A stretch of 64,000 bases of DNA, taken from assembly GCA_025350705.1 (NCBI GenBank), contig JANXXH010000079.1, positions 1,725 to 65,724 on the forward strand, written 5' to 3'. How positions within the stretch are numbered: the first letter of the stretch is position 1; each line of letters begins with the position of its first letter. The translations under genes and the position numbers were made by a program. Origin of the DNA: Gallionella sp. (GTDB lineage: Bacteria; Pseudomonadota; Gammaproteobacteria; Burkholderiales; Gallionellaceae). The notes under the pieces are model-generated. The model worked only from the letters and a program-made list of their open reading frames with translations, made no database searches and had not been told where the DNA came from. Positions 10,900 through 23,830 of the stretch are shown one piece after another.

Positions 10900-11457
10900 A
10901 TGGGAACTTCTTATACCACTCCAACAAATCCGGACTGGTGGCGCGAACCGATCGAGCGCACCGAGATAATCTGGATCGTACTTTCATTTGCGTGGTGCCT
11001 GTTCATGTTCGGCTGGATGGTCAGCTGGCACTGGATCGGTAACCAGAACATGCGCAACGAGGCCTACAAAACCACGCCCGATGCGTATTCCAAGAAACTG
11101 GCGGATCAGCTGGCGAAATATTCTGTCCGCAAGGATGCGGCAACCGGTGAAGATGTCGTGGCACCGCCCCCGGGCAGCGATGTTTATCTGGCCGGTATGC
11201 AATGGCAATGGCGTCCCATTCTGGAATTTCAAAAAGGCAAAACCTATCGTCTGCATCTTTCTTCTCTTGATGTGGGTCATGGTTTCTCGTTGCAGCCTGA
11301 GAACATCAACTTTCAGGTTTATCCGGGCTACGAGCAGGTGCTCAATTTGACCCCGAACAAATCCGGCACGTTCAGCGTGGTATGCGGTGAATACTGCGGC
11401 GGCGTTAACGCTATGGGCCATCACACGATGTTAGGCAGAATTTACGTTAAGGAGTAA
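10900..11457 (+). CDS. Heme-copper enzyme subunit II (CuA cupredoxin)
   Basis: One TM helix, DVGHG and CGEYCG..GHHTM CuA ligands. Confidence 0.92.
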   Translation: MGTSYTTPTNPDWWREPIERTEIIWIVLSFAWCLFMFGWMVSWHWIGNQNMRNEAYKTTPDAYSKKLADQLAKYSVRKDAATGEDVVAPPPGSDVYLAGMQWQWRPILEFQKGKTYRLHLSSLDVGHGFSLQPENINFQVYPGYEQVLNLTPNKSGTFSVVCGEYCGGVNAMGHHTMLGRIYVKE

Positions 11458-11463
11458 ATAAAA

Positions 11464-13179
11464 ATGGCGACCACTACATTATCTGAATATCGTGTTGATC
11501 CTGTATCCGGCCTCAAGATCAACAGGACGGCGAACACTCTGGTTAAGTGGAATGCGTTTGCAGCAGTCGTATTTTTGCTGGTAGGCGGGCTGTTTGGCCT
11601 CGGGGTGGCGCTTACCCGCATGCCGAGTGTGCAGTTGCTCCCGCCCGAGATGTTCTACATGTTCCTGACGGCTCATGGCCTTATTAATCTGGCGGTATGG
11701 ATCATCTTCTTTGAGATGGCCGTATTGTATTTTCTGGGTGCGCATGTGCTGGGCAACCGGCTGGCGACCCCCCGCTTTGCATGGGCGCAGTTCTGGCTGA
11801 TGCTGGTTGGTGCGGCGATGGTCGCGGTGGCCGTGCTGGGAGGTAATTCCAGTGTGATGATGACCTCCTATCCGCCCTTGGAAGCGGCCCCGCATTTTTA
11901 TCTGGGCTTGATCCTGTTCGCAGTGGGTGCGTTGATCGGCTGCTTCGTGTTTCTCGGCACGCTGGTGGTTGCCAAGAAAGAAAAAACCTACAGCGGATCG
12001 CTTCCGCTGGTGGTGTTCGGCGGCGTGACGGCTTGCGTGATCGCGATATTCACGATCGTTTCCGGCGCGCTGATCCTGATCCCGACCTTTATCTGGTCGT
12101 TACATATAATCGATGGCTTCACTATTAATCCAATGATGTACCGGGTCGTATGGTGGGCGTTCGGCCACTCCTCGCAACAGATCAACGTGGTCACGCATAT
12201 CTCCATCTGGTATCTGATCGCGTCATTGGTGTTCGGCGCCAAGCCGATGTCCGAGAAGGTGAGCCGTTTTGCGTTCCTGTTGTATATCCTGTTCCTGCAA
12301 CTGGGTTCGGTGCACCATCTGCTGTCTGATCCCGGGTTGACTTCTGCATGGAAGATATTTAACACCAGCTACATGATCTATCTCGCAGTGTTGGCCAGCA
12401 TGATCCACGGTTTGACCGTTCCCGGCTCCATTGAAGTAGCACAACGCAAGAAGGGTATGGATGCAGGTTTGTTTACCTGGCTGCGCAAAGCACCCTGGGG
12501 CAATCCGGTCTTCTCCGGCATGTTCCTGTCGCTGGTCGGTTTCGGTTTCATCGGCGGCATCACGGGTGTGGTGATGAGCGTGGAACAGATCAACATGATC
12601 ATCCACAACACGATGTATCTGCCGGGGCATTTCCATGGCACTCTGGTAGCAGGTACCACGATGGCGTTTATGGCGGTGACTTATTGGCTGATCCCGGTGG
12701 TGTTCCAGCGCAAGATAGCTTTGGCCGGGGTGGCGAAATTGCAGCCCTATGTCTTTAGTCTGGGTGCCTGGGTCTTCTCGATCTCACTGATGGGTGCCGG
12801 TACGCTGGGTGTGCAGCGCCGTCATGCGGATATCACTTTTGCCGGCCAGCCTTTGGCTTATGAGTATCCTGAAATCGCCAAGGGCCTGATGGACTTCGGC
12901 GAGATCTTCGCGGTGATCATGTCGGTCGGCGCGATCATGTTCATCATCGTCGTGCTGGCGTCCATTTTTGCAGGTGAGCGCATTCCGGAAGGTTCCGCAC
13001 CATGGCCGAAAGTTGAAGATGCCGATGTCGCGTTTGCTAAGACCGGCAAGAAACATATCGGTATCGGCGGCTTCGAAGCACCGGGTACTTTTGTGCTGGC
13101 CTTGATCCTGTTCGTGACTCTCGTGTTGTACTATTTTATCAACTTCAAGTATCTGTCCACGGTGTGGGGCATGTCCTAG
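11464..13179 (+). CDS. Heme-copper superfamily subunit I, eNOR-type nitric oxide reductase
   Basis: Six His ligands (TAHG, FGHSSQQ, VHHL, GHFHG); cross-linking Tyr of HPxVY replaced by Gln. Confidence 0.82.
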   Translation: MATTTLSEYRVDPVSGLKINRTANTLVKWNAFAAVVFLLVGGLFGLGVALTRMPSVQLLPPEMFYMFLTAHGLINLAVWIIFFEMAVLYFLGAHVLGNRLATPRFAWAQFWLMLVGAAMVAVAVLGGNSSVMMTSYPPLEAAPHFYLGLILFAVGALIGCFVFLGTLVVAKKEKTYSGSLPLVVFGGVTACVIAIFTIVSGALILIPTFIWSLHIIDGFTINPMMYRVVWWAFGHSSQQINVVTHISIWYLIASLVFGAKPMSEKVSRFAFLLYILFLQLGSVHHLLSDPGLTSAWKIFNTSYMIYLAVLASMIHGLTVPGSIEVAQRKKGMDAGLFTWLRKAPWGNPVFSGMFLSLVGFGFIGGITGVVMSVEQINMIIHNTMYLPGHFHGTLVAGTTMAFMAVTYWLIPVVFQRKIALAGVAKLQPYVFSLGAWVFSISLMGAGTLGVQRRHADITFAGQPLAYEYPEIAKGLMDFGEIFAVIMSVGAIMFIIVVLASIFAGERIPEGSAPWPKVEDADVAFAKTGKKHIGIGGFEAPGTFVLALILFVTLVLYYFINFKYLSTVWGMS

Positions 13180-13247: not shown

Positions 13248-14108
13248 ATGATGATCAGACAATATATCGATGTATTCAAGTTGCGCATCGGATTGGTGAT
13301 TACCTTTGCCGCATTGGGCGGCATGGCGATCACACCGGGCGCGTCCTTGCCGATATGGAAGATACTGGTTCTTTCGCTGACGGTCCTGATGGGGTCGGCG
13401 GCGGCCGGAGCCTTCAACCAATACAGCGAGCGCGACATGGATGCGAAAATGCCGCGCACCAGGAACCGGCCATTCGTGACAGGTTATTTTCAGCATGGCT
13501 TGAAGTGGCTGGCGATAATCGGGTTGCTGCTTCTGGTTGCGGTAGCGACTGCGGCATACGTGCTGAATGCGATGGCTGCACTGAATATTTTTCTCGGCGC
13601 GTTCACTTACGCCATCGTTTATACGGTATGGCTGAAGCGGCGTACCTGGCTGAATATCGTATTCGGCGGATTGGCCGGCAGCTTCGCGGTGCTTGCGGGC
13701 GCGGCAGCGGTCGATCCTTCGTTCGGCCCGCTTCCGGGATTGTTGGCGCTGGTGCTGTTCCTGTGGACACCGCCGCATTTCTGGAGTCTGGCGATAGCCA
13801 TTCGCGATCAGTATGCCGCAGCAGGAGTGCCGATGCTGCCCGTGGTAAAAGGCGACCAGAAAGCAGCGCAAATCATATTGGGGCACACCATTCTGCTGGT
13901 GTTCGTATCGCTGATGCCGATGTATTACGGTTTAAGCTGGATCTATCTCGCTGGTGCCTTGTCGGGTGGCGGTTACTTCCTGATCAAGAGCGTGCAACTG
14001 GTGCAGAATCCGACGAGAAAAACGGCAATGGCTAATTTCTTCGCGTCACTGGTGCAGATCAGTTTATTGATGTTCGCGCTGATGCTGGAAGTGCTATTCG
14101 CCGGCTGA
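13248..14108 (+). CDS. ctaB: Protoheme IX farnesyltransferase (heme o synthase)
   Basis: NQYSERDMDAKMPRTRNRP, YTVWLKRRT, WTPPHFWSL. Confidence 0.95.
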   Translation: MMIRQYIDVFKLRIGLVITFAALGGMAITPGASLPIWKILVLSLTVLMGSAAAGAFNQYSERDMDAKMPRTRNRPFVTGYFQHGLKWLAIIGLLLLVAVATAAYVLNAMAALNIFLGAFTYAIVYTVWLKRRTWLNIVFGGLAGSFAVLAGAAAVDPSFGPLPGLLALVLFLWTPPHFWSLAIAIRDQYAAAGVPMLPVVKGDQKAAQIILGHTILLVFVSLMPMYYGLSWIYLAGALSGGGYFLIKSVQLVQNPTRKTAMANFFASLVQISLLMFALMLEVLFAG

Positions 14109-14228: not shown

Positions 14229-15137
14229 ATGAAAGCATCCCTCATGCATCGCTGCTTATTGCCGCTTATCGGGGCGGTTCTGTTGATTGCAACCGCGCCT
14301 TCCCCGGCTCAGGATGGCGATACCGATGGCATCAGGCTGTATAAAAACGCCGTATCTAATGCGAAGCTGCATGTGCAACCGGAAAAGGTCGTCACTCAGG
14401 TTTTTGATGAGAAGGATGCCCTGAAAATAAGCCAGGCCGCGATAGGCCAACAACTTGGCGATTACACTTTTTTGAATCGCAGCGGGCATACCGTGCGATT
14501 GTCAGACTATCGGGGCAAGCCGCTGGTCATCGACATGATCTATACCCATTGCCCGTTTGTCTGCGCCATCAAGACCCGCAACCTGGAAGCGCTCAAACTG
14601 TCTCTGGATGCATTAGGGGCTGACAGTTTCGGAGTGATGACGATCGGTTTCGATACCGAGAACGATACGCCGGAAGCGATGGATGATTTCGGCAAACGTA
14701 TGGATGCGAAAATGCCCAACTGGGAATTCGTCAGCGCGGACGCGGATACGATAAAAAAATTGAGCAAGGATCTGGGATTTGTTTTTTTTCCTTCACCCGC
14801 AGGCGGCTTCGATCATATAACCCAAACCTCTTTTGTCGATGGGCAAGGCAAGGTCTACCAACAGATCTACGGAGAAGAGTTTGACAACAAGACGCTGCTC
14901 GAGCCGTTGAAGAACATGATCTATAACATCAAGGCGGCGGAGCCGGGATTGGCTGGCCTATCGAACAGGGTGCGGCTATTTTGCACGGTGTATGACGCCA
15001 GGACAGGGAAATACAATGTCGATTACAGTTATTTTTATGGCATTGGTATGGGGATATTCGTTTCGATATTTATTACCTGGTGGATCGTGGTCGAATATCG
15101 ACGCAGCCCCAAGCGTAGCAAGCCAAACCATGTTTGA
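14229..15137 (+). CDS. SCO-family copper chaperone with C-terminal TM anchor
   Basis: Signal peptide, CPFVC motif, distal His (FDHIT). Confidence 0.88.
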   Translation: MKASLMHRCLLPLIGAVLLIATAPSPAQDGDTDGIRLYKNAVSNAKLHVQPEKVVTQVFDEKDALKISQAAIGQQLGDYTFLNRSGHTVRLSDYRGKPLVIDMIYTHCPFVCAIKTRNLEALKLSLDALGADSFGVMTIGFDTENDTPEAMDDFGKRMDAKMPNWEFVSADADTIKKLSKDLGFVFFPSPAGGFDHITQTSFVDGQGKVYQQIYGEEFDNKTLLEPLKNMIYNIKAAEPGLAGLSNRVRLFCTVYDARTGKYNVDYSYFYGIGMGIFVSIFITWWIVVEYRRSPKRSKPNHV

Positions 15138-15207
15138 TAAAGGTAGAAAAAACTTTCTTTGTGTGACTACACTGGAATCGTCGATATTATTTACATAGAA
15201 AAATAAA

Positions 15208-17148
15208 GTGATCAAATTCATCCATCGTACCGGCCAGAGCATTTTTTTAATTCTGGAAAACGGACTCAACGGCGTATTCTGGCCGGCACTGAACCCGCTT
15301 TATTTTTTGGGCGCGATCACCTACTGGATGTTCTGGATCATCGTCGTCAGCGGTTTTTATATCTATGCCTTTTACGATACCGGCGTAAATGACGCCTTCA
15401 ATTCGGTGGAGCGTATCACCCACGGGCAATGGTATCTGGGCGGTATCATGCGCAGCCTGCATCGTTATGCTTCCGACGGGATGGTGCTGGCCGCGGTATT
15501 GCACATGCTGCGCAATTTCTTCTTCGACCGCTACCGGAATTTCCGCTGGTTCTCGTGGTACACCGGCGTCATCGTGCTGTGGCTGATCTATATCGCAGGC
15601 ATCAACGGTTACTGGCTGGTCTGGGACAAGCTCGCGCAGTTCGTCGCGGTGGCGAGCGCAGAGTGGCTGGATGCGCTGCCGATCTTCAGTGTTCCGATGG
15701 CGCGCAATTTTCTGGAGCAGGGCAGCGTGAACGACCGCTTCTTCTCGCTGCTATCGTTCATTCATCTGGGCGTTCCGCTGGGCGCCTTTGCACTGATCTG
15801 GATACACACTCAGCGCGTTCCGCAGGCCAAGACCTCGCCGCCGCAAGCGCTCAAGATCGGATTGGTTTTATCCATGATCGCGCTTGCGCTGCTCAAGCCT
15901 GCGTTAAGCCAGGGTCAAGCGGATCTGGACTCGATTTCATCCATGCTGAATCTGGACTGGTTCTATCTGTGGAGCTATCCGTTGATCTACACATGGGGTC
16001 CCGGCAAAGTGTGGATCCTGGCAGGCGGCGTGACCGGCTTTCTTTTGTTGTTGCCGTTTTTAGGCGGGAAGAAACGCGTCAAGGATGATTATGAGATCAC
16101 CGCTGTTCCCGGTGGGCGCAAGTTTACGGTCAAGGTGGGCGAGACCATACTTGAGGCCGCACTGAATCAGGGAGTGAATCTGCCGTATCAATGCCGCGAC
16201 GGTGCGTGCGGAACCTGCAAGGGCAAGGTACTGCGAGGCAAGGTCGATTATGGTACTTACCAGCAAGGCGTGCTCAGCGATGCGGAAAAAGCACAAGGCA
16301 TGGCATTGTTCTGCTGTGCCAAGCCATTAACCGATCTGCACATAGAGTGCCATGAAATCGCAGAGCTGGTGAAATTCCCGGCGAAGACGATAAATTTCAG
16401 CGTGCAGAAAATGGAACGTGCGGCGCAGGATGTGATGCTGATCGAATTGCAGCCCGAGGAAGATGCACAGATGGATTTTATCTCCGGCCAGTATATTGCT
16501 GTGCTGCTGGATGATGGCAGCAAACGCAGTTTCTCCATTGCCAATGCACCGCATGAAACAGACCGGTTGCAACTGCATATCCGTCTGGTGGAAGGCGGCA
16601 AATTCACCAGCCATGTCTTCAATAAAATGAAACAGGGTGATGTGCTGCAAGCGGAAGGCCCGCTCGGCACTTTCTTTATGCATGAAGACAGCGGCAAGCC
16701 CATCATCTTCATGGCGGGTGGCACAGGCTTCGCGCCGGTCAAGAGCATGGTGGAACATGCATTCAATATCGGGCTGAAGCGTCCCATGGTGTTGTACTGG
16801 GGAGCCAGGACACCGGCTGATCTGTACCTCGCGGCCTTGCCGGAAAAGTGGCAACAGGAGCATGACAACTTCAAGTTCATTCCGGTTTTGTCAGAGCCCA
16901 AACCCGAGCATGGCTGGCAGGGCAGATCCGGCCTGGTTCATGAAGCCATATTGCAGGATCATCAAAATCTGGACAGTTATCAGGTTTATGCCTGCGGGCC
17001 ACCGGTGATGATCGATGCAGGCCGTGCGGCATTCGTCGCGAAGGGATTGCCTGAAGACCAATATTATTCCGACGCCTTTCTGTTTACTCATTACAAGACT
17101 CCGGTTGTAGAACCTTCGCTATCCTCTGAGGGAGTGACGCATGACTAA
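15208..17148 (+). CDS. Cytochrome b/b6-like domain fused to [2Fe-2S] ferredoxin-FAD-NAD(P)H reductase
   Basis: Four heme His (SLHRY, VLHML, FIHLG, WIHTQ); CRDGACGTC..C; RSFSIA; GGTGFAP; CGPP. Confidence 0.9.
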   Translation: MIKFIHRTGQSIFLILENGLNGVFWPALNPLYFLGAITYWMFWIIVVSGFYIYAFYDTGVNDAFNSVERITHGQWYLGGIMRSLHRYASDGMVLAAVLHMLRNFFFDRYRNFRWFSWYTGVIVLWLIYIAGINGYWLVWDKLAQFVAVASAEWLDALPIFSVPMARNFLEQGSVNDRFFSLLSFIHLGVPLGAFALIWIHTQRVPQAKTSPPQALKIGLVLSMIALALLKPALSQGQADLDSISSMLNLDWFYLWSYPLIYTWGPGKVWILAGGVTGFLLLLPFLGGKKRVKDDYEITAVPGGRKFTVKVGETILEAALNQGVNLPYQCRDGACGTCKGKVLRGKVDYGTYQQGVLSDAEKAQGMALFCCAKPLTDLHIECHEIAELVKFPAKTINFSVQKMERAAQDVMLIELQPEEDAQMDFISGQYIAVLLDDGSKRSFSIANAPHETDRLQLHIRLVEGGKFTSHVFNKMKQGDVLQAEGPLGTFFMHEDSGKPIIFMAGGTGFAPVKSMVEHAFNIGLKRPMVLYWGARTPADLYLAALPEKWQQEHDNFKFIPVLSEPKPEHGWQGRSGLVHEAILQDHQNLDSYQVYACGPPVMIDAGRAAFVAKGLPEDQYYSDAFLFTHYKTPVVEPSLSSEGVTHD

Positions 17149-17689
17149 GCCGCTACAATATCCCGTGTTTTTGCAATATCTGGGGCAAGGATTGTTCTAT
17201 GCCATGTTCGTGGCCGTGATCGGTTTCTTCTCTACTTCTCCGGCATATACCCACCTGCCGCCTGACGAGACGCTGATCAAGCTGAGTTTCAGGCATGCCG
17301 GTCAGCTCAAGGGCGAGTGCCGCGACTTCACCCCTGAAGAACTTGCCAAGTTGCCCGCATACAAACGCAAAGGGACCAAAGAATGTCCGCGCGAGCGCGC
17401 CGATGTGGTCGTCGAGCTGGAAATGGACGGCAAGCAGCTCTATCATGAGATATTGCGGCCGACCGGTTGGGCACACAGCAGCACGTCGAATATATACCGG
17501 CGTATTCCGGTGAAGGCCGGCGTTCATAACCTGAAGGCGCGTCTCAGGGATCATGACGGAAATGATTTTAATTTTACCCATGAAGAAACGGTAACCCTTG
17601 CGCCGGGGCGCATTCTGGTGATCGATTTCAAGGATGCGGACGGCGGATTTATTTTCAAGAACAAGATTAAATTTGGAGATAACGGATGA
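17141..17689 (+). CDS. Membrane-anchored hypothetical protein with two Cys
   Basis: Overlaps both neighbours; N-terminal TM helix; GEC and ECPRER. Confidence 0.8.
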   Translation: MTKPLQYPVFLQYLGQGLFYAMFVAVIGFFSTSPAYTHLPPDETLIKLSFRHAGQLKGECRDFTPEELAKLPAYKRKGTKECPRERADVVVELEMDGKQLYHEILRPTGWAHSSTSNIYRRIPVKAGVHNLKARLRDHDGNDFNFTHEETVTLAPGRILVIDFKDADGGFIFKNKIKFGDNG

Positions 17690-19080
17690 GTTCAACACAT
17701 CAGCAAACAGGTATCGAAATAGGTGATGGCGGTGCACGCGGATTCGCGCTTTCGATGCCGTCGGAGGCCGGCCGCAGATTAGCTTCCGGCTGGTTGTGGC
17801 TGGGCTTGGCATCGCTGGTGGGAGCGGGGCTGTTCGCCATTCTGTTGGTGCTAGCGCGCACTCCCTATTTTCAGGATTTCTTTCCCTGGGTCGATTTCTT
17901 TCATACCGCATTGGTGGTGCATGTCGATCTGTCGGTGCTGCTGTGGTTCCTTGCATTCGCCGGAGTGTTGTGGAGCCTGAATTCCTCATCCAGATTTATC
18001 GTCATAGGCTGGCTGGCCTTGGTGCTCGCGGCCAATGGTGCCGTGATGATCGTCTTGTCTCCTTTTGTTGAGACAGGTATACCTGTGATGAGTAATTATG
18101 TGCCGGTCATTCATAGTACTTTCTTCATGATGGGGTTGATCGTTTTTGCCGTAGGCATCGCATTGCTGGTGCTGCGCAGCTTGATCGCGCTGCCCGCTGC
18201 AAATCTGTGGCGGGGAGCGGAAGGATCGATACGGTTTGGTTTTTTGGCCGCCGCTATTTCCACACTGTTCGCGCTGGCCGCTTTCGGCTGGTCATACATC
18301 ATGATTCCCGGCACATACGACACCACGCAATATTATGACCTCCTGTTCTGGGGTAGCGGACATGTGCTGCAGTTCACCTATCTGCTGTTGATGCTGGCCG
18401 GATGGCTGTGGCTGGCGGATGCCTGCGGCGCAAGCATCCCGCTGACCCCGCGGATCGCGACAGTCCTGCTGATGCTGGTGCTGTTGCCGATATTCTATGT
18501 CCCCGTTATCTACCTCACCTATGCAGGTTCGTTGCCTGACTACATGGGACAGTTCACCCAGTTGATGAAAGTGGGCGGCGCTTTTGGTCCTGTGCCCATT
18601 GCGCTGGCCATTGTATACGGGATCGTGAAAGGCGAACGCACATCGGCGACTGGCCCGCAACGCGCGGCATTGCTGTCATCCATGTTCCTGTTTGCGATCG
18701 GCGGAGGCATCAGCCTGATGATCAGGGACAGCAACACCATCATCACCGCGCACTATCACGGAACCGGAGGCGCGATCAGCCTCGCCTTCATGGGGCTCAC
18801 CTTCCATCTGCTGCAACGCCTCGGCTACCGCGAGCCGGATCTGAAGTGGGCGACACTGATGCCTTACATATACGGCGCGGGTCAGGCGCTCCACATCTTC
18901 GGCTTGCTGTGGTCAGGCGGCTATGGCGTGCAGCGCAAGGTGGCAGGCGCCGCGCAAGAGCTGCATGGCTTCGCGCAGAAAGCAGGCATGGGATTGATGG
19001 GCTTCGGCGGACTGATCGCCGTGATCGGCGGTATTGTATTTCTGGTGGTGGTGTTCAGAGCCATGCGGCGGATGAAGTAA
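17686..19080 (+). CDS. Degenerate heme-copper subunit-I paralog
   Basis: About 12 TM segments; VVHVD, FWGSGHVLQF, AHYHG, YGVQRK; no HH pair. Confidence 0.75.
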   Translation: MSSTHQQTGIEIGDGGARGFALSMPSEAGRRLASGWLWLGLASLVGAGLFAILLVLARTPYFQDFFPWVDFFHTALVVHVDLSVLLWFLAFAGVLWSLNSSSRFIVIGWLALVLAANGAVMIVLSPFVETGIPVMSNYVPVIHSTFFMMGLIVFAVGIALLVLRSLIALPAANLWRGAEGSIRFGFLAAAISTLFALAAFGWSYIMIPGTYDTTQYYDLLFWGSGHVLQFTYLLLMLAGWLWLADACGASIPLTPRIATVLLMLVLLPIFYVPVIYLTYAGSLPDYMGQFTQLMKVGGAFGPVPIALAIVYGIVKGERTSATGPQRAALLSSMFLFAIGGGISLMIRDSNTIITAHYHGTGGAISLAFMGLTFHLLQRLGYREPDLKWATLMPYIYGAGQALHIFGLLWSGGYGVQRKVAGAAQELHGFAQKAGMGLMGFGGLIAVIGGIVFLVVVFRAMRRMK

Positions 19081-19286
19081 AAAGGAACAACTCATTACAA
19101 AAAAGTCTCGGCGTCAATATCGGGCATCAATGACGCAAGCCCCGCTCAAATCATGTTGATGTTTTAGGGGTGAAAAAGCGAGCTACCGCATTGTGCCAAT
19201 TCCAGTACTTCTTTCGTATAGCGTTCAAGCCCCCTGCCAAGTGCAGTCGCTCGGGAAGGTACTCCATAGCAGATTAGGCATCAGAA

Positions 19287-20258
19287 ATGAATCAGAGGAT
19301 TAATCAGAAGTTGTTGGTTTGTGTATGCTTGTTTGCGTTGGGCGCGCAAGTATTTGCAGATTCGCTGCCTGATGCATCGATAGATATTTACGAAGAGAAA
19401 TATTTCTATGCAGAGAAAGCTCTTGATGCAGGCGACTATGTAAAAGCTGAAAAATTACTAAGAACGCTGGCTGAACAAGGTTATGCTCAAGCACAATTCA
19501 AACTTGGGTTGATATATGCCCTGGGAAATGGTGTTCCTCAAGATTATAAAGAGGCGGTGAAGTGGCATCGGCTGGCAGCAGAACAGGGTCTCGGTAATGC
19601 ACAATTTAATCTTGGGGTGATGTATGACCAAGGAAATGGTGTTCCTCAAGATTACAAAGAAGCGGTGAAGTGGTATCTACTAGCCGCAGGACATGGTATC
19701 GCTGAAGCACAAGATAATCTTGGATTGATGTATAGCAATGGGCAGGGTGTTCCTCAGGAGTACACCGAAGCGGTGAAGTGGCATCGGCTGGCAGCAGAAC
19801 AGAATTTTCCTAGCGCACAAACAAACCTTGGGACGAAGTATTACTTGGGGCAGGGTGTCACTCAAGATTTTCATATGGCAGTGGGGTGGTGGCGGCGGGC
19901 AGAACGTGGCAATTCTAAAGCTCAATTCAATCTTGGGTTGATGTATGACCTGGGGAAGGGTGTTTCCCAAGAATACAAAGAAGCGCTGAAGTGGTATCGG
20001 TTGGCCGCAGAACAAGGTCATGCTTCAGCACAATTAAATCTTGGGGTGATGTATGGCAACGGACAAGGAGTGCCTAAAAACCATGTTCTGGCATATATGT
20101 GGGCATACATAGCAACTACCAATGACGCATCCAGCAAGATACAAAAACTTTCTACGGAAGTCCTATCTTTAGTTGCGAGACAAATGAAATCTAACCAAAT
20201 AGCCGAAGCGCGTGAACTAGCCGGAAAATGTATCTCAAATAAATTTAAGGGGTGTTAG
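19287..20258 (+). CDS. Secreted Sel1-like repeat protein
   Basis: 36-aa AQFNLGVMY..G.GVPQDYKEAVKW repeats; visibly AT-richer than flanks. Confidence 0.93.
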   Translation: MNQRINQKLLVCVCLFALGAQVFADSLPDASIDIYEEKYFYAEKALDAGDYVKAEKLLRTLAEQGYAQAQFKLGLIYALGNGVPQDYKEAVKWHRLAAEQGLGNAQFNLGVMYDQGNGVPQDYKEAVKWYLLAAGHGIAEAQDNLGLMYSNGQGVPQEYTEAVKWHRLAAEQNFPSAQTNLGTKYYLGQGVTQDFHMAVGWWRRAERGNSKAQFNLGLMYDLGKGVSQEYKEALKWYRLAAEQGHASAQLNLGVMYGNGQGVPKNHVLAYMWAYIATTNDASSKIQKLSTEVLSLVARQMKSNQIAEARELAGKCISNKFKGC

Positions 20259-20361
20259 TAAATCAGGGTGTAAGTCATATCAAACCGTGAACGACCGCTA
20301 ACGAAAATTTTGAATGTCTGCATCGGAAGCAGAAGTTGGCGTTATCCGAAGCGACTCTTTA

Positions 20362-20559
20362 TTATTCCGAGGGCTGCACAAAATAATTGATCAAGCCGAA
20401 CGTGATACATGCCAGCGTCAATATAATCACGAAGAAAATGAGACTGCGCAAGCCGCGATTCTGGAAACGTTCTCCGCGCGAGATTTCGATGCGGTCGAGT
20501 AACCAGTCGGACATGAAGTAGAGGCCGCCAGCGATCAGTGTGTAGTAGATGACTTCCAT
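20362..20559 (-). CDS. Small 2-TM hypothetical protein
   Basis: 65 aa, two hydrophobic segments, AGGGA RBS. Confidence 0.7.
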   Translation of the reverse strand: MEVIYYTLIAGGLYFMSDWLLDRIEISRGERFQNRGLRSLIFFVIILTLACITFGLINYFVQPSE

Positions 20560-20678
20560 GTTATTGTCCCTAGATAGTTAACGCACGCACATTATATGAT
20601 GCCGCCGGTCTTCGCAGAGATGGATTCAAGCTATTGTTTCAGATACCCTGATGATGGTTTTGATTCGAGGACATTGAA

Positions 20679-22214
20679 TTGAGCATTCCCATCCCCACTG
20701 AGTCATACGCGCGCAGGGTGCTGCTTCGGCTTGAAGGAACGCTGAACAAGGTTTTCGGCAATGACCTCAACCCGTTTTACCATCTGGGCGCGCTGGGATT
20801 CTATTTCTTCTGGGTGGTGGTGGTCAGCGGCGCCTATATCTATGCCTTCTATAAGACGGGCATCGAATTATCTTATCCCTCAGTCGAATATCTCACGCAC
20901 GAGCAATGGTATCTGGGCGGGGTCATGCGCAGTCTGCATCGCTATGCTTCCGATGCGCTGGTGTTGGTCATGGTGCTGCATCTGTTGCGCGAATATATTC
21001 TGGGACGCTATCGCGGGGCACGATGGTTCGCCTGGATCACCGGTGTGCTGCTGATATGGTTGATCATTGCTGCAGGCATCAACGGTTACTGGATGGTATG
21101 GGACAAGCTGGCGCAATATTCCGTCGTGTCTGTGATGGCTTGGTTCGACTGGTTGCCGATATTCAGCGAACCGATGTCGCAAAGTTTTATTTCGCAGGAA
21201 GTGCTCAATGACCGTTTCTTTTCGCTGATCTCGTTTGCGCATGTGACCGTTCCGCTGCTTATTCTGTTTGTGCTCTGGATACACATCATGCGCATCAGCA
21301 AGCCGGTGGTCAATCCACGGCGTAGTCTTGCGCTGGGAATGTTGCTGACGCTGTTGGTGCTGGCATTGCTAAAGCACGCGCTGAGCCAAGGTCCATCAGA
21401 TATGGGGATCGAGCCAGCCAACATAAACATCGACTGGTTTTATTTGTTCATTCATCCGCTGCTGGATGTGTGGCCGGCAGGACAGGTATGGGCGCTGGTG
21501 ATCGGAGTCAGCTTGCTGTTCTGCGCGTTGCCGTGGTTGCCGGGCAGGCATAAGCAGATACCGGTCGCCGAAGTGCATCTCAAGGAATGCAGCGGATGCA
21601 GGCTTTGCGTCGCCGATTGTCCCTATGAGGCGGTGGTGATGAGGCCGCGCAGCGACGGCATGCAATTCAGGGAAGAGGCGGTGGTCGTGGCGGATCGTTG
21701 CGTGAGTTGCGGCATCTGCGTCGGGGCATGTCCCTCATCAAACGCTTTCAGGAGCGAAGCCGGATATGTGAGCGGAATCGAAATGCCGTCGCTGCCGATA
21801 TTCGGGCTGCGCACCGCGATGATGAATGAATTGGCGAAGCTGGAGGGCGATGTCCGCATCATGGTTTTCGGCTGCGATAATGCAGCGAATATTGAGAAGC
21901 TGCGCAGCAAAGGAGTGGCCGTATTGAGCCTGCCCTGTATTGCGATGTTGCCGCCATCCTTCATCGAATATGCGCTGCACGAGCATCACGTCGAAGGCGT
22001 ATTCATCACCGGCTGCCGCGAGGGCGATTGCTACCATCGCCTGGGTGTGCTGTGGACAGGGAAGCGACTGACCGCAGAGCGGGAGCCGCGCCTGCGCAGC
22101 CGCGCCGATCGCGAACGCATCAGGCAATGCTGGGCTGCTTCCGCCGATCTCGAAGAATTGGAATCCGAATTGGAGTCATTCCGTTCCAGCCTGCAACGGG
22201 GTTCGGGTAGTTGA
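20679..22214 (+). CDS. Cytochrome b-like domain fused to 2x[4Fe-4S] ferredoxin and MvhD/FlpD domain
   Basis: Four heme His; CSGCRLCVADCP; CVSCGICVGACP; FGC..LPC..GCREGDCYH; TTG start uncertain. Confidence 0.88.
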   Translation: MSIPIPTESYARRVLLRLEGTLNKVFGNDLNPFYHLGALGFYFFWVVVVSGAYIYAFYKTGIELSYPSVEYLTHEQWYLGGVMRSLHRYASDALVLVMVLHLLREYILGRYRGARWFAWITGVLLIWLIIAAGINGYWMVWDKLAQYSVVSVMAWFDWLPIFSEPMSQSFISQEVLNDRFFSLISFAHVTVPLLILFVLWIHIMRISKPVVNPRRSLALGMLLTLLVLALLKHALSQGPSDMGIEPANINIDWFYLFIHPLLDVWPAGQVWALVIGVSLLFCALPWLPGRHKQIPVAEVHLKECSGCRLCVADCPYEAVVMRPRSDGMQFREEAVVVADRCVSCGICVGACPSSNAFRSEAGYVSGIEMPSLPIFGLRTAMMNELAKLEGDVRIMVFGCDNAANIEKLRSKGVAVLSLPCIAMLPPSFIEYALHEHHVEGVFITGCREGDCYHRLGVLWTGKRLTAEREPRLRSRADRERIRQCWAASADLEELESELESFRSSLQRGSGS

Positions 22215-22256: not shown

Positions 22257-23429
22257 TTAATGTTCCTTGCCATCAACCCGTGGCTGCATCAGGAAGGGAA
22301 TATACCGCGATGCGAGCAGCGCAAAACAGATAAACCAGCATGACGCCGCGAGGTAAATCCAGAGTGTGTAGCCTGCTGGATAAAACTGCGGTGCGATGAT
22401 ACGAAATACAAATGCCAAAATCATCACACGCAGAGCCAATTTGTCGAACATGTCAAAAACCACCTTTCTGCCCGTGTGCCCCTTGGCTATTCTGATCAGC
22501 ATTGCGGGAATAATCAGGCCCATCACACCGAAGGTAAAGACATGGAGGGACACGGATACCGCCCATTCTGGATGGACGATCTGCCCGAGAAATTCAATCG
22601 GCAGTTGCGAGACGAGCATGATGTAACCCAGATACATGATGCCGGTGTCGAGCCGCCGCATCGCCAATTGCGGCTTCCAGTAAATGAAGCGGCCTGCGAG
22701 CAGAAGCGCGAGCAGCAGGGCGATCCAGCCTGACAACTGCTGCGGCATCAGGCTTGCGAACACCAGCAGCAGTCCGAGCATCTTGATCGCCCTGTTCAGC
22801 ATCGGATGATTCAAAATCGAAACCTGAAAAACACCCTTCATGAATTGGGGCAGCGTTCGCTCCAGCATCACCAGAAAAGCCATCCGAAACAGTCCCACCG
22901 CCATGCTCCAGCCGATTAAGTAGTAATCGGCGCTGAGCATCAAGTTCTTGGTCAACAAAAATAGCGGAAGGATCAGCAACAAGAAGTAATTGTCGCGGTA
23001 GGAGTCGGTCTTGCGATTGCGTAGCAGCGTCCACATCAGCATTGCGACGATGGCAGCAATGAACAGGTTGTTGGAGATTCGGAACAGCAGCGGCGGCCAA
23101 ACTCCCCCGAACCGCATCCCGGTACTCTCGAACAGCCATGCCGCCATCAGGAACATCAGCGCGTAACCGGAGTAGCCGCGCACCCCAACCCAGTTCTTGG
23201 TTGCGGTCAGCAGGAAACCGCCGAGTACCGCCCAGCCGAAACCGAAGAACATTTCATGGGCGTGCCACTGCACCATATTAAACGTAGTCTGCAGCGCGGC
23301 GATCACGCCCGAATAAATCAATGCCCACAACAACGGCAGACTCAAGCCCGATAACATCGCCAGTGCAAAGAACGGCCGAAAGCCGACCAGCCAGAGCGGA
23401 TGTGCAGGCAGGTATATTTTGTTTTCCAT
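22257..23429 (-). CDS. nnrS: NnrS family protein
   Basis: GFRPFF, WHAHEMFFGF, GFLLTA..NW, GHTGR. Confidence 0.93.
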   Translation of the reverse strand: MENKIYLPAHPLWLVGFRPFFALAMLSGLSLPLLWALIYSGVIAALQTTFNMVQWHAHEMFFGFGWAVLGGFLLTATKNWVGVRGYSGYALMFLMAAWLFESTGMRFGGVWPPLLFRISNNLFIAAIVAMLMWTLLRNRKTDSYRDNYFLLLILPLFLLTKNLMLSADYYLIGWSMAVGLFRMAFLVMLERTLPQFMKGVFQVSILNHPMLNRAIKMLGLLLVFASLMPQQLSGWIALLLALLLAGRFIYWKPQLAMRRLDTGIMYLGYIMLVSQLPIEFLGQIVHPEWAVSVSLHVFTFGVMGLIIPAMLIRIAKGHTGRKVVFDMFDKLALRVMILAFVFRIIAPQFYPAGYTLWIYLAASCWFICFALLASRYIPFLMQPRVDGKEH

Positions 23430-23440
23430 GCGCTGGTCTT

Positions 23441-23830
23441 TCACTCCCGCTGCAACAAACTTTCGAGCACTGGAAAAAGCTCGCGCTCCTCGAACCGGAC
23501 ATGAACCGACAGGCATTTGCCGAAGTTATCCAATGCCCCGGCATCGTTCTGTCGCAGGGCATCGAGCAGCCCGCGCAATTGCTGATTGTCTGCCAAGGTG
23601 CGCTCACTCAGCGCTTGTGTTTCTGTGTTGTGCAGCAGCGGCAGTAACGATGCTTCCTCTAACTGGAAGTGCGGCTTCAGTTGATTCGCGCATGCACGGA
23701 TCACGCGCTGGCAGGTTAGGCTCACCAGAGCCTCATCACCGGATTGCGCCGCGCGCTCGCAGGCTTTTGCCAGCGTAAGTGCGGTGTGGTGCTCTTGTGA
23801 CAGCGGCTGCAGGATAGCGCTACGTTTCAT
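23441..23830 (-). CDS. Hemerythrin-like (HHE) protein
   Basis: LSQEHH, HFQLEE, HVRFEERELF; one expected His reads N (ADNQQ). Confidence 0.82.
   Translation of the reverse strand: MKRSAILQPLSQEHHTALTLAKACERAAQSGDEALVSLTCQRVIRACANQLKPHFQLEEASLLPLLHNTETQALSERTLADNQQLRGLLDALRQNDAGALDNFGKCLSVHVRFEERELFPVLESLLQRE

What the first reader, a model, noticed from the sequence alone, without database searches (positions are those of the whole stretch)
14229..22214. Pair of Rieske-less cytochrome b fusions (b-ferredoxin-FNR and b-[4Fe-4S]2-MvhD) beside an eNOR: candidate undescribed electron-transfer complex
Seen: 15208-17148 and 20679-22214 have paralogous cytochrome b domains. They share QWYLGG.MRSLHRYASD, AGINGYW.VWDKLAQ and NDRFFSL, keep all four heme His, and have DWFY where bc1 has PEWY. 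Their tails differ: [2Fe-2S]+FAD+NAD(P)H reductase in one, 2x[4Fe-4S]+MvhD/FlpD in the other. No Rieske or cytochrome c1 gene is in the window. The first fusion overlaps a 182-aa anchored two-Cys protein, which overlaps the subunit-I paralog. Known: MvhD normally relays electrons in Hdr/Mvh/Flx complexes, and cytochrome b normally needs a Rieske partner. Inference: a heterodimeric membrane wire linking NAD(P)H to quinone or to the periplasmic side. It could feed the NO reductase, reduce metals or hemes for its assembly, or run in reverse to make NADH in a lithotroph.
Basis: partly seen in the sequence, partly recalled or inferred. Interest (0 to 1): 0.85.

Follow-up and report, generated by a model that had tools for sequence, protein, structure and literature searches.

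The report
Cytochrome b redox partners of eNOR
The two genes are real paralogous membrane cytochromes b fused to cytoplasmic redox domains; they belong to a conserved, never-tested accessory module that almost always accompanies one kind of nitric-oxide reductase (eNOR), and both the architecture (2014) and this operon (2026 preprint) were already described.

Summary
Observation confirmed. 15208-17148 encodes cytochrome b + [2Fe-2S] ferredoxin + FAD/NAD reductase. 20679-22214 encodes cytochrome b + 2x[4Fe-4S] + MvhD. The cytochrome b parts are 46% identical, keep all four haem His, and read xDWF where bc1 has PEWY. No Rieske gene lies on this contig.

Linkage to eNOR is very strong. In two genome samples, 22/22 and 46/47 eNOR genomes also carry the cyt b-MvhD gene, even where the two are unlinked. 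In 65 of 80 related loci eNOR sits directly upstream.

The pair is not the conserved unit. The widespread core is cyt b-MvhD plus the 182-aa protein, which is often fused to it, usually with the 464-aa subunit-I paralog. The FNR-tailed copy is a single-origin duplicate in Gallionellaceae/Nitrosomonadales. Another lineage independently added a diflavin NADPH-reductase tail, and some lineages have no tail.

Not undescribed. The 'PDWF-FeS' cytochrome b clade was catalogued in 2014, and this exact operon was noted in Ferrigenium straubiae in 2026. This scan has also met the family several times on other DNA. Function is untested.

Best reading: a transmembrane haem wire serving eNOR's electron supply or maturation. 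The heterodimer idea remains untested.

The parts
10900..11457 (+). eNOR subunit II (one TM helix plus cupredoxin domain with CuA-type ligands H...CxxxC...H..M)
   Evidence: Weak COX2 Pfam match; ligand motif read in the translation; conserved upstream of the module in related loci
11464..13179 (+). eNOR subunit I (haem-copper superfamily; helix VI reads GHSSQQ, with no Tyr; HH pair present)
   Evidence: COX1 2.4e-65; sequence; 87% identical to the F. straubiae KS orthologue (L022), which is classed as eNOR; the Gln substitution is named as the eNOR hallmark in PMC8756737
13248..14108 (+). UbiA-family prenyltransferase (haem O synthase-like)
   Evidence: PF01040 6.7e-52
14229..15137 (+). Sco1/SenC copper chaperone: signal peptide, CPFVC motif and a C-terminal TM anchor (the ORF is open from TTG 14163; the likely start is ATG 14229)
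   Evidence: PF02630 2e-15; sequence; hydropathy; directly followed by a cytochrome b gene in 67 of 67 linked loci
15208..16092 (+). Cytochrome b domain of the FNR-tailed fusion (six helices A-F, four haem His, LDWF motif)
16114..17019 (+). Cytoplasmic tail of the first fusion: plant-type [2Fe-2S] ferredoxin, FAD-binding and NAD(P)H-binding domains (BenC/MmoC-like reductase)
   Evidence: Pfam; NCBIfam BenC 1.4e-64, below its cut-off; a free-standing paralog 54.6% identical lies on contig C9
17141..17689 (+). p182: N-terminal TM helix plus a periplasmic eight-strand beta-sandwich; no known family; overlaps both neighbours
   Evidence: No Pfam or NCBIfam hit; model pLDDT 92; fused to the C-terminus of cytochrome b in many relatives; alignment A1
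17686..19080 (+). p464: subunit-I paralog keeping both haem-ligand sets and one of the three metal-B His; HH pair lost
   Evidence: invariant H79, H226, H356, H358, R417, K418
19287..20258 (+). Sel1-repeat protein: a strain-specific insert, not part of the conserved module
   Evidence: PF08238 1.2e-61; no match in any of the 80 related loci
20679..21563 (+). Cytochrome b domain of the MvhD-tailed fusion (IDWF motif)
21567..22196 (+). Cytoplasmic tail of the second fusion: 2x[4Fe-4S] ferredoxin plus an MvhD/FlpD [2Fe-2S] domain
   Evidence: Pfam; matches to solved MvhD chains 5odc_D and 9sw2_D; cluster Cys invariant in 30 distant relatives
22257..23516 (-). NnrS (NO-stress haem-copper membrane protein), convergent neighbour
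   Evidence: PF05940 3.1e-72; kept in only some related loci

Best explanation
**What they are.** Both genes belong to the Rieske-less 'PDWF-FeS' clade of cytochrome b. They form part of a conserved accessory module of eNOR-type nitric-oxide reductase gene clusters.

**Anatomy.**
- Each protein is a six-helix, two-haem cytochrome b with both termini in the cytoplasm.
- The C-terminus carries a cytoplasmic redox module. The two haems therefore form a wire across the membrane, from that module (near haem bH) to the periplasmic face (haem bL and a conserved D-W pocket).
- The 182-aa protein has a TM helix and a periplasmic beta-sandwich and packs onto this face.
- The conserved core is cyt b-2x[4Fe-4S]-MvhD plus p182, usually with p464, a haem-binding subunit-I paralog without the catalytic metal site.
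- The NAD(P)H-reductase-tailed copy here is a later duplicate confined to Gallionellaceae and related Nitrosomonadales.

**Proposed mechanism (inferred, not shown).** Electrons enter from NAD(P)H through FAD and [2Fe-2S] in one paralog. In the other they enter from an unknown cytoplasmic donor through MvhD and the [4Fe-4S] clusters. In tail-less relatives the source is probably quinol. They pass bH to bL and are used at the periplasmic side for eNOR.

**My odds for the use:**
- About 0.35 for maturation or upkeep of eNOR's metal centres, together with Sco1, p182 and p464.
- About 0.3 for direct electron supply to the enzyme.

Since cytochromes b are dimers, a mixed dimer of the two paralogs is plausible but untested.
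For: **Domains, haem ligands and topology**
-.
- The cytochrome b part of a natural triple fusion matches bc1 cytochrome b over about 290 columns.

**Linkage to eNOR**
- 65 of 80 related loci have COX2-eNOR I upstream.
- 14 of the other 15 loci are cut by a contig end.
- The remaining locus (L033) has eNOR on another contig of the same genome.
- Genome samples: 22/22 eNOR genomes (class sample) and 46/47 (phylum sample) also hold cyt b-MvhD.
- The converse is 22/26 and 46/49; every exception is in a fragmented assembly.
- In some genomes the two sets lie on different contigs or 900 kb apart yet still co-occur, and cyt b-MvhD and p182 stay adjacent.

**Natural fusions**
- cyt b-MvhD-p182, in about 35 of 150 representatives.
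- cyt b-p182, cyt b-p464 and Sco1-cyt b also occur.
- The triple fusion folds as one body: pLDDT 91, pTM 0.90.

**Direction of electron flow**
- Two unrelated NAD(P)H-reductase tails were recruited independently: Fer2-FAD-NAD, and flavodoxin-FAD-NAD.
- The FNR-tailed cytochrome b domains can be placed as one group on the tree (one change; SH-aLRT 82). They sit inside a clade supported at 99, together with eight MvhD-tailed copies.

**Deep-branching relatives**
- They still sit next to eNOR-type COX1 (GH[QS]SQQ) and Sco1.

**Published support**
- The orthologous proteins were reported in the proteome of culture KS under nitrate-reducing Fe(II)-oxidising conditions.
Against: - No experiment exists on any member of the family.
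- p182 has no invariant metal or cofactor ligands; only G109, G127 and D137 are invariant. Its Cys pair is lost together in some lineages. No redox bridge from haem bL to CuA or Sco1 is therefore visible.
- Tail-less cyt b-p182 proteins stand alone in at least one eNOR operon (L086). A cytoplasmic donor is therefore not universal.
- The invariant Asp-Trp of the Qo-like motif would equally fit a quinol site working in either direction.
- When the cluster is split, Sco1 stays with eNOR in two genera and with the cytochrome b genes in one. Its adjacency is therefore weak evidence.
- p464 was not found in one genome that has the rest.
- The genome samples cover Pseudomonadota only.
Confidence: 0.6

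Rival explanations
1. Bifurcating or reverse quinol:NAD(P)+/ferredoxin oxidoreductase. Quinol is oxidised at the Qo-like pocket. One electron goes to a high-potential periplasmic acceptor that feeds eNOR. The other runs bL to bH to the Fe-S/flavin tail and makes NAD(P)H or another low-potential reductant. NO reduction would thus pay for reducing power in lithoautotrophs. This is the preprint's idea and the first reader's third option.
For: - The Asp of the Qo-like motif is invariant and the following Trp nearly so; further near-invariant positions lie in the periplasmic loop between helices C and D.
- The tails are the same modules that reduce NADP+ in photosynthesis: Fd-FNR and flavodoxin-FNR.
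- Many hosts carry the names of groups known for iron or sulfur lithotrophy: Gallionellaceae, Zetaproteobacteria, Thiotrichaceae, Sulfurifustaceae.
- Tail-less forms could run an ordinary Q-cycle-like reaction.
- The idea was proposed for F. straubiae.
Against: - The electron would have to move from the positive to the negative side against the membrane potential and still reach about -320 mV.
- No Rieske-like first acceptor is evident. p182 lacks invariant ligands, and Rieske genes lie elsewhere in the genome.
- BenC/MmoC-type and diflavin reductases normally work from NAD(P)H outward (established knowledge of those families).
- The canonical Qi-site residues are not apparent in the alignment (my reading).
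Confidence: 0.15
2. The trio cyt b + p182 + p464 is an enzyme in its own right. p464 would be a haem-only catalytic subunit, p182 its subunit-II-like cap, and the cytochrome b its built-in electron donor. It would act on NO or a related small molecule alongside eNOR.
For: - p464 keeps invariant ligands for two haems, one active-site His and the propionate-binding R/K pair, with 58% mean column identity.
- The gene order p182 then p464, with an ATGA overlap, mimics subunit II then subunit I.
- A cyt b-p464 fusion exists.
Against: - p464 was not found in at least one genome that has eNOR, cyt b-MvhD and p182. It is missing from several loci.
- Two of the three metal-B His are lost.
- Fold searches with the p182 model listed no cupredoxin among their best matches.
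Confidence: 0.1
3. An obligate heterodimeric wire. The FNR-tailed and MvhD-tailed cytochromes b form a mixed dimer. Electrons from NAD(P)H cross between the two bL haems and leave through the MvhD tail, or to quinone. Function would then depend on the pair.
For: - bc-type cytochromes b are dimers with bL-bL electron exchange (established knowledge).
- Second paralogs arose at least three times independently: the FNR tail, the diflavin tail, and the tandem MvhD copies in Zetaproteobacteria.
- In one operon an FNR-tailed copy is paired with a tail-less cyt b-p182.
Against: - Most lineages carry a single cyt b-MvhD gene, so the pair cannot be the basic working unit.
- A cytoplasm-to-cytoplasm path has no evident purpose beside a periplasm-facing enzyme.
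- No interface was tested here.
Confidence: 0.08
4. Electron supply for haem A/As synthesis. The fusions would act as the ferredoxin/ferredoxin-reductase system that feeds the membrane haem A synthase (CtaA), whose product eNOR needs.
For: - eNOR uses a modified haem a, and many eNOR operons carry ctaA.
- ctaA lies beside the module in L049 and in the P0149 context.
- The FNR tail resembles oxygenase reductases.
Against: - The linkage is to eNOR, not to CtaA in general. A- and B-family oxidase operons with CtaA are not known to carry this module (my knowledge).
- The conserved tail is MvhD, not the FNR type.
- Nothing links p182 to CtaA.
Confidence: 0.05

Closest known systems
'PDWF-FeS' clade of cytochrome b (Kao & Hunte 2014, Genome Biol Evol, PMC4122944)
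   Same: The architectures are the same. [quoted passage not shown] It also lists one from Alicycliphilus denitrificans BC fused to a ferredoxin and a flavin oxidoreductase. They have an xDWF Qo motif and no Rieske protein in the cluster.
   Different: The paper only catalogued the clade. It gave no link to eNOR, no p182 or p464 partners and no function. In the window the first motif position is L or I rather than P.
eNOR operon of Ferrigenium straubiae KS (bioRxiv 10.64898/2026.01.22.701106)
   Same: Gene order is the same, and the proteins are 67-87% identical (L022). Both cytochrome b fusions were noted there, reported in the proteome, and proposed to be a quinol:NAD+ oxidoreductase or supercomplex.
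   Different: The preprint treats the two genes as unusual and as markers of Ferrigenium. Here the MvhD form is found with nearly every eNOR in the Pseudomonadota sampled. The window comes from a different Gallionella-like genome (75% identity for the MvhD-tailed fusion).
Cytochrome b of bc1 and b6f complexes (PetB/QcrB)
   Same: Same fold for helices A-F, four His ligands for two haems, and a cd/ef-loop pocket with an acidic residue followed by Trp.
   Different: No Rieske or cytochrome c1/f partner; six helices rather than eight (or 4+3); only 24% identity to the genome's own canonical cytochrome b; cytoplasmic redox domains fused at the C-terminus.
NADPH oxidase / ferric reductase (NOX, FRE) and MsrQ-type two-haem membrane reductases
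   Same: It would work alike: a cytoplasmic FAD/NAD(P)H domain feeding two stacked b haems that carry electrons to the outer face.
   Different: The membrane domain is unrelated (PF00033, not the ferric-reductase domain). An extra [2Fe-2S] ferredoxin sits between the flavin and the haem. This is a resemblance from general knowledge, not a tested relationship.
Anammox Rieske/cytochrome b complexes with NAD(P) oxidoreductase subunits (Kuenenia stuttgartiensis)
   Different: Those complexes keep a Rieske subunit and have separate reductase subunits. They are not linked to eNOR.

Membership tests
PDWF-FeS clade of cytochrome b (Kao & Hunte 2014) | Cytochrome b fold with four His ligands for two b haems | tested here: met
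   PF00033 above its cut-off in both proteins; H87, H101, H188 and H202 invariant; fold match to bc1 cytochrome b for a clade member
PDWF-FeS clade of cytochrome b (Kao & Hunte 2014) | Qo motif of the xDWF type | tested here: met
   LDWF and IDWF in the two proteins; Asp invariant and Trp nearly invariant in 30 relatives. The first position is hydrophobic, not Pro.
PDWF-FeS clade of cytochrome b (Kao & Hunte 2014) | C-terminal fusion to a non-Rieske Fe-S module (4Fe-4S + MvhD, or ferredoxin + flavin oxidoreductase) | tested here: met
PDWF-FeS clade of cytochrome b (Kao & Hunte 2014) | No Rieske protein in the gene cluster | tested here: met
   The four Rieske matches in the genome lie on contigs C78, C49, C21 and C83; none lies on the window's contig C40
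Cytochrome bc1 / b6f complex | Adjacent Rieske iron-sulfur protein and cytochrome c1 or f | tested here: not met
   The canonical Rieske-cytochrome b pair is on contig C83.
Cytochrome bc1 / b6f complex | Eight-helix cytochrome b, or a 4+3 split form | tested here: not met
   Six hydrophobic segments; the chain leaves the membrane after helix F into the cytoplasmic tail
eNOR gene cluster (Murali et al. 2024) | Subunit I with three metal-B His, no cross-link Tyr, and the characteristic Gln | tested here: met
   GHSSQQ in helix VI and the HH pair; the Gln hallmark is stated in PMC8756737; 87% identity to the F. straubiae KS subunit I, which is classed as eNOR
eNOR gene cluster (Murali et al. 2024) | CuA-type subunit II | tested here: met
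   H, CxxxC, H and M ligands in the 185-aa protein. The Pfam COX2 match is weak (17.9 bits, below the cut-off).
eNOR gene cluster (Murali et al. 2024) | NO reductase activity without O2 reduction | not testable with these tools
   Shown only for the Rhodothermus marinus enzyme
MvhD/FlpD | FlpD domain with the Cys ligands of a [2Fe-2S] cluster | tested here: met
   PF02662 at 43.5 bits against a cut-off of 22.3; C399, C420, C446 and C451 present; matches to 5odc_D and 9sw2_D
MvhD/FlpD | Works docked to an HdrA-type flavoprotein | not tested
   No partner was searched for. None is conserved in the operons seen.
Rieske-type protein (p182 as a substitute) | CxH ... CxxH cluster-binding boxes | tested here: not met
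   Absent from the sequence. The two Cys are co-lost in several lineages and no His is invariant.
NOX/FRE ferric-reductase superfamily | Ferric-reductase transmembrane domain | tested here: not met
   Pfam lists only Cytochrome_B families for the membrane part, plus one weak below-cut-off 7TMR-DISM_7TM match. The likeness is functional only.

The most novel reading that the evidence does not exclude
A Rieske-free electron-bifurcating Q site. Quinol oxidised at the D-W pocket gives one electron to a membrane-anchored copper protein (the Sco1-like protein, which is fused to this cytochrome b in some organisms) or straight to eNOR. The other electron goes through the two haems to the Fe-S/flavin tail. 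NO reduction would then drive production of NAD(P)H or reduced ferredoxin in iron- and sulfur-oxidising autotrophs without reverse electron transport.
Probability: 0.08. Interest if true: 0.9.

Novelty: new member of a known kind. Interest (0 to 1): 0.5.

Why it matters
eNOR is a widespread source of N2O. It occurs in wastewater phosphorus removers, nitrate-dependent iron oxidisers and saline habitats. Its natural electron donor and its assembly pathway are both unknown; the purified enzyme was assayed only with artificial donors.

A module that accompanies nearly every eNOR sampled here is the obvious place to look for both. It consists of a two-haem membrane wire with interchangeable cytoplasmic redox heads.

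- the near-perfect genome-level co-occurrence;
- the natural fusions that tie p182, p464 and Sco1 to the cytochrome b;
- the independent recruitment of two different NAD(P)H-reductase tails;
- the tail-less minimal form.

If the module turns out to couple NO reduction to making low-potential reductant, it would change how energy budgets of anaerobic iron and sulfur oxidisers are drawn. If it is an assembly system, it would be a new way of delivering electrons to the periplasm for metal-centre maturation.

Tried and rejected
- **Complex prediction** (cytochrome b domain + p182 + p464, with p464 as the partner): score 0.00, no verdict. It is not evidence either way.
- **Fold searches with the p182 model.** Foldseek against the PDB gave a best E of 9e-4 and TM 0.37. 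The wide VIA search gave a best Z of 8.7 to the luminal sandwich of HGSNAT. Both show only a generic beta-sandwich; no redox fold was among the best matches.
- **Protein atlas look-up of p182**: only unnamed clusters.
- **Sequencing runs**: no RNA holder listed; the holders are sediment metagenomes.
- **Reaching another phylum** through the 'Gemmatimonadota' MAG of L059: the sample returned the same Pseudomonadota genomes. Whether eNOR in other phyla carries the module was therefore not tested.
- **Neighbours of the unlinked cyt b-MvhD/p182 pair in L089**: a methyltransferase and a B12/radical-SAM gene downstream. Nothing interpretable.
- **Sco1 as an obligatory partner.** I considered this because Sco1 directly precedes a cytochrome b gene in 67/67 linked loci. 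I weakened it because Sco1 stays with the eNOR genes when the cluster is split in G408, G449 and G219.
- **p182 as a Rieske or copper-site substitute.** Rejected for lack of invariant ligands.


Full report
**1. What is in the sequence**

The region holds one co-directional run of genes:
- a CuA-type subunit II (10900-11457);
- a haem-copper subunit I (11464-13179);
- a UbiA-family prenyltransferase (13248-14108);
- Sco1 (14229-15137);
- cytochrome b-Fer2-FAD-NAD (15208-17148);
- a 182-aa protein without any family, p182 (17141-17689);
- a 464-aa weak COX1 relative, p464 (17686-19080);
- a Sel1-repeat protein (19287-20258);
- cytochrome b-2x[4Fe-4S]-MvhD (20679-22214).

NnrS lies convergent downstream.

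The two cytochrome b parts are 46% identical over 342 columns (E 3e-90). All four haem His are invariant across 30 diverse relatives, as is the Asp of the DWF stretch. All cluster Cys are present. The overlaps 17141-17148 and ATGA at 17686 are real. The genome's four Rieske genes lie on other contigs, one of them next to the canonical cytochrome b.

**2. Topology**

Hydropathy gives six membrane segments (helices A-F). Lys/Arg are concentrated in the N-terminus, the B-C and D-E loops, and after helix F. They are nearly absent from the A-B, C-D and E-F loops.

This is the canonical cytochrome b orientation. Both ends are in the cytoplasm, so the Fe-S and flavin tails are cytoplasmic. The cd and ef loops, with their invariant Asp and nearly invariant Trp, are periplasmic. 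In fusion proteins p182 follows the cytoplasmic tail with its own TM helix, so its beta-sandwich must be periplasmic. Sco1 here has a signal peptide and a C-terminal anchor. That fits the natural Sco1-cytochrome b fusion P0262.

**3. The enzyme next door is an eNOR**

Subunit I reads GHSSQQ in helix VI, with no Tyr and with the Gln that is cited as the eNOR hallmark. It keeps the HH pair and the helix-X His pair. Subunit II has CuA ligands. The protein is 87% identical to the Ferrigenium straubiae KS orthologue, which two papers class as eNOR.

**4. Linkage to eNOR**

A scan of one genome per species with the MvhD fusion returned 80 loci, from 88% down to 46% identity.
- In 65 loci, COX2-eNOR I-(UbiA)-Sco1 lies directly upstream.
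- In 14 of the other 15, a contig end cuts the locus within about 1.2 kb.
- In the last one (L033) the eNOR gene is on another contig of the same genome.

Whole-genome samples:

| Sample | Genomes | eNOR genomes | of these with cyt b-MvhD | cyt b-MvhD genomes | of these with eNOR |
|---|---|---|---|---|---|
| Class | 400 | 22 | 22 | 26 | 22 |
| Phylum | 300 | 47 | 46 | 49 | 46 |

The window's own genome is left out of these counts.

All exceptions are fragmented or incomplete assemblies. In several genomes the two gene sets are on different contigs or 900 kb apart, yet still co-occur. Even there, cyt b-MvhD and p182 stay adjacent. Related genomes are not independent, so no statistic is offered.

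**5. The pair is not the conserved unit**

There are two operon forms.
- Gallionellaceae and related Nitrosomonadales: Sco1-cbFNR-p182-p464-cbMvh.
- Loci labelled as Gamma-, Alpha- and Zetaproteobacteria: Sco1-cbMvh-p182, with p464 after it or upstream.

Loci labelled Zetaproteobacteria or Mariprofundaceae (L062, L075) have two tandem MvhD copies.

On a tree of the cytochrome b domains, the FNR-tailed copies can be placed as a single group (one change, SH-aLRT 82). They sit within a clade supported at 99, together with eight MvhD-tailed copies from a second group of loci labelled Nitrosomonadales, with one labelled Gallionellaceae. The Zetaproteobacteria duplicates are separate. The tree was a quick search rooted at the midpoint, so the order of events is not established.

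The FNR tail's closest relative in this genome is a free-standing reductase on contig C9, 54.6% identical.

**6. The family is larger and modular**

A search of 1.8 billion cluster representatives with the cytochrome b domain alone found 321 at E<=1e-30. Their architectures are:
- cytochrome b + 2x[4Fe-4S] + MvhD;
- the same with p182 fused at the end (about 35 of the best 150);
- cytochrome b + p182 with no redox tail;
- cytochrome b + Fer2-FAD-NAD;
- cytochrome b + flavodoxin-FAD-NAD, a diflavin reductase (P0136);
- cytochrome b + p464 (P0173);
- Sco1 + cytochrome b + ferredoxin (P0262).

Contexts of these variants:
- P0136 is a second paralog in an operon that already has cbMvh-p182-p464. 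It sits after PCuAC-like, CtaG and Sco1 genes and before NnrS. This is an independent reinvention of the 'one MvhD copy plus one NAD(P)H copy' arrangement.
- P0149 is a tail-less cyt b-p182 sitting beside an FNR-tailed copy that has its own p182.
- In L086 a tail-less cyt b-p182 is the only cytochrome b in an operon with p464-like, COX2, eNOR-type COX1 (GHQSQQ) and Sco1.
- The deep-branching triple fusion P0226 also follows an eNOR-type COX1 and Sco1.

**7. The partners**

*p182.* It has no Pfam, NCBIfam or named atlas family. Its model (pLDDT 92) is a TM helix plus an eight-strand sandwich with only generic structural neighbours. Only G109, G127 and D137 are invariant. H52, C60 and H129 are kept in at least 90% of sequences and C82 in most. 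The two Cys are lost together in the Zetaproteobacteria-labelled loci L075 and L080 and in P0237. That pattern reads as a disulfide, not a cofactor site.

*Triple fusion.* A natural triple fusion folds with pLDDT 91 and pTM 0.90. The three parts are therefore predicted to form one defined body.

*p464.* It keeps invariant His for a low-spin and a high-spin haem, one His of the metal-B site and the R/K pair. It lacks the HH pair. It was not found in one Rhodospirillaceae genome that has the rest of the module.

**8. Mechanism**

Shown:
- two haem sites spanning the membrane;
- cytoplasmic cluster and flavin domains with complete ligand sets under purifying selection;
- a periplasmic partner tied to the cytochrome b by gene fusion;
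- tight genomic linkage to eNOR.

Inferred:
- *Direction.* Two unrelated NAD(P)H-reductase modules were recruited independently, and such modules usually deliver electrons. This favours flow from the cytoplasm outward. The layout would then work like NADPH oxidases or ferric reductases, though the membrane domain is unrelated.
- *Quinol.* The tail-less form and the invariant Qo-like Asp mean that quinol is probably also a substrate.

Not decided: what the electrons do at the periplasmic face.
- About 0.35: maturation or upkeep of eNOR's Cu, Fe or thiol centres. The genes sit in the assembly-gene half of the operon; a Sco1 fusion exists; p464 looks like a non-catalytic copy of subunit I; and, as far as the text I read goes, the R. 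marinus enzyme was isolated and assayed with artificial donors, with no cytochrome b mentioned.
- About 0.3: direct electron supply, since eNOR's natural donor is unknown.
- About 0.15: the reverse or bifurcating model of the preprint. The electron would have to travel against the membrane potential to about -320 mV without any visible high-potential first acceptor.

A mixed dimer of the two paralogs is plausible. Cytochromes b are dimers and second copies arose repeatedly. It cannot be the basic mechanism, because most lineages have one copy.

**9. What is already known**

- Kao & Hunte (2014, PMC4122944) defined a 'PDWF-FeS' clade. [quoted passage not shown] No Rieske protein is in the cluster.
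- The 2026 F. straubiae preprint describes this very operon. It reports the proteins in the proteome and proposes a quinol:NAD+ oxidoreductase or supercomplex with eNOR.
- The Gallionellaceae pangenome paper does not mention these genes in the passages that name eNOR or cytochrome b.
- Earlier notes of this scan had reached the same family on other genomes, and one of them gave me the 2014 reference, which I then checked.

No member has been studied experimentally, as far as the library searched shows.

**10. Verdict**

The claim that the system is undescribed does not hold, and the emphasis on a heterodimer is not supported by the distribution. This copy is an ordinary member of a known but uncharacterised family. 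The family itself remains a good experimental target.

Noticed in passing
window 19287-20258: A Sel1-repeat gene sits between p464 and the MvhD fusion only in this genome. None of the 80 related loci has a match, and in most the two genes are a few hundred bases apart.
   Followed up: partly
own genome, contig C9:1406-2383 (outside the window): A free-standing Fer2-FAD-NAD reductase is 54.6% identical to the tail of the first fusion. It is a likely relative of the module that was fused to the duplicated cytochrome b.
   Followed up: no
L081:8001-10484: A cytochrome b of the same clade is fused to a flavodoxin-FAD-NAD (diflavin, CPR/CysJ-like) reductase. It is encoded after PCuAC-like, CtaG and Sco1 genes and before NnrS, in an operon that also has cbMvh-p182-p464.
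   Followed up: partly
L062 and L075 (labelled Mariprofundaceae and Zetaproteobacteria); also about fourteen ~2-Mb genomes of one family: Two tandem cyt b-MvhD genes sit side by side. This duplication is separate from the Gallionellaceae one. In the two Zetaproteobacteria-labelled loci aligned (L075, L080), p182 lacks both Cys.
   Followed up: partly
L033:3985-11521 (Gallionellaceae MAG): Here Sco1-cbFNR-p182-p464-cbMvh forms its own block behind a dihaem cytochrome c gene and hyp/gltX genes. The eNOR subunit I is on another contig of the same genome.
   Followed up: yes
L059 and L014: The record labels look wrong. The 'Gemmatimonadota' MAG of L059 is treated as Pseudomonadota by the genome collection. 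A 'Polaromonas' MAG (L014) carries a Gallionella-type operon at 64-88% identity. Both are probably binning or labelling errors.
   Followed up: no
G639:C34:6388-7902: One of the two tandem cyt b-MvhD copies in this genome has an in-frame TGA.
   Followed up: no
L089:3905-6448: Where cyt b-MvhD/p182 is unlinked from eNOR, a methyltransferase gene and a B12-binding radical-SAM gene follow on the same strand.
   Followed up: no
L049:12057-18391: In a Thiotrichaceae MAG the eNOR module is followed by a hemerythrin, a small cytochrome c and a complete nap (periplasmic nitrate reductase) cluster. A Crp/Fnr regulator and ctaA lie upstream.
   Followed up: no
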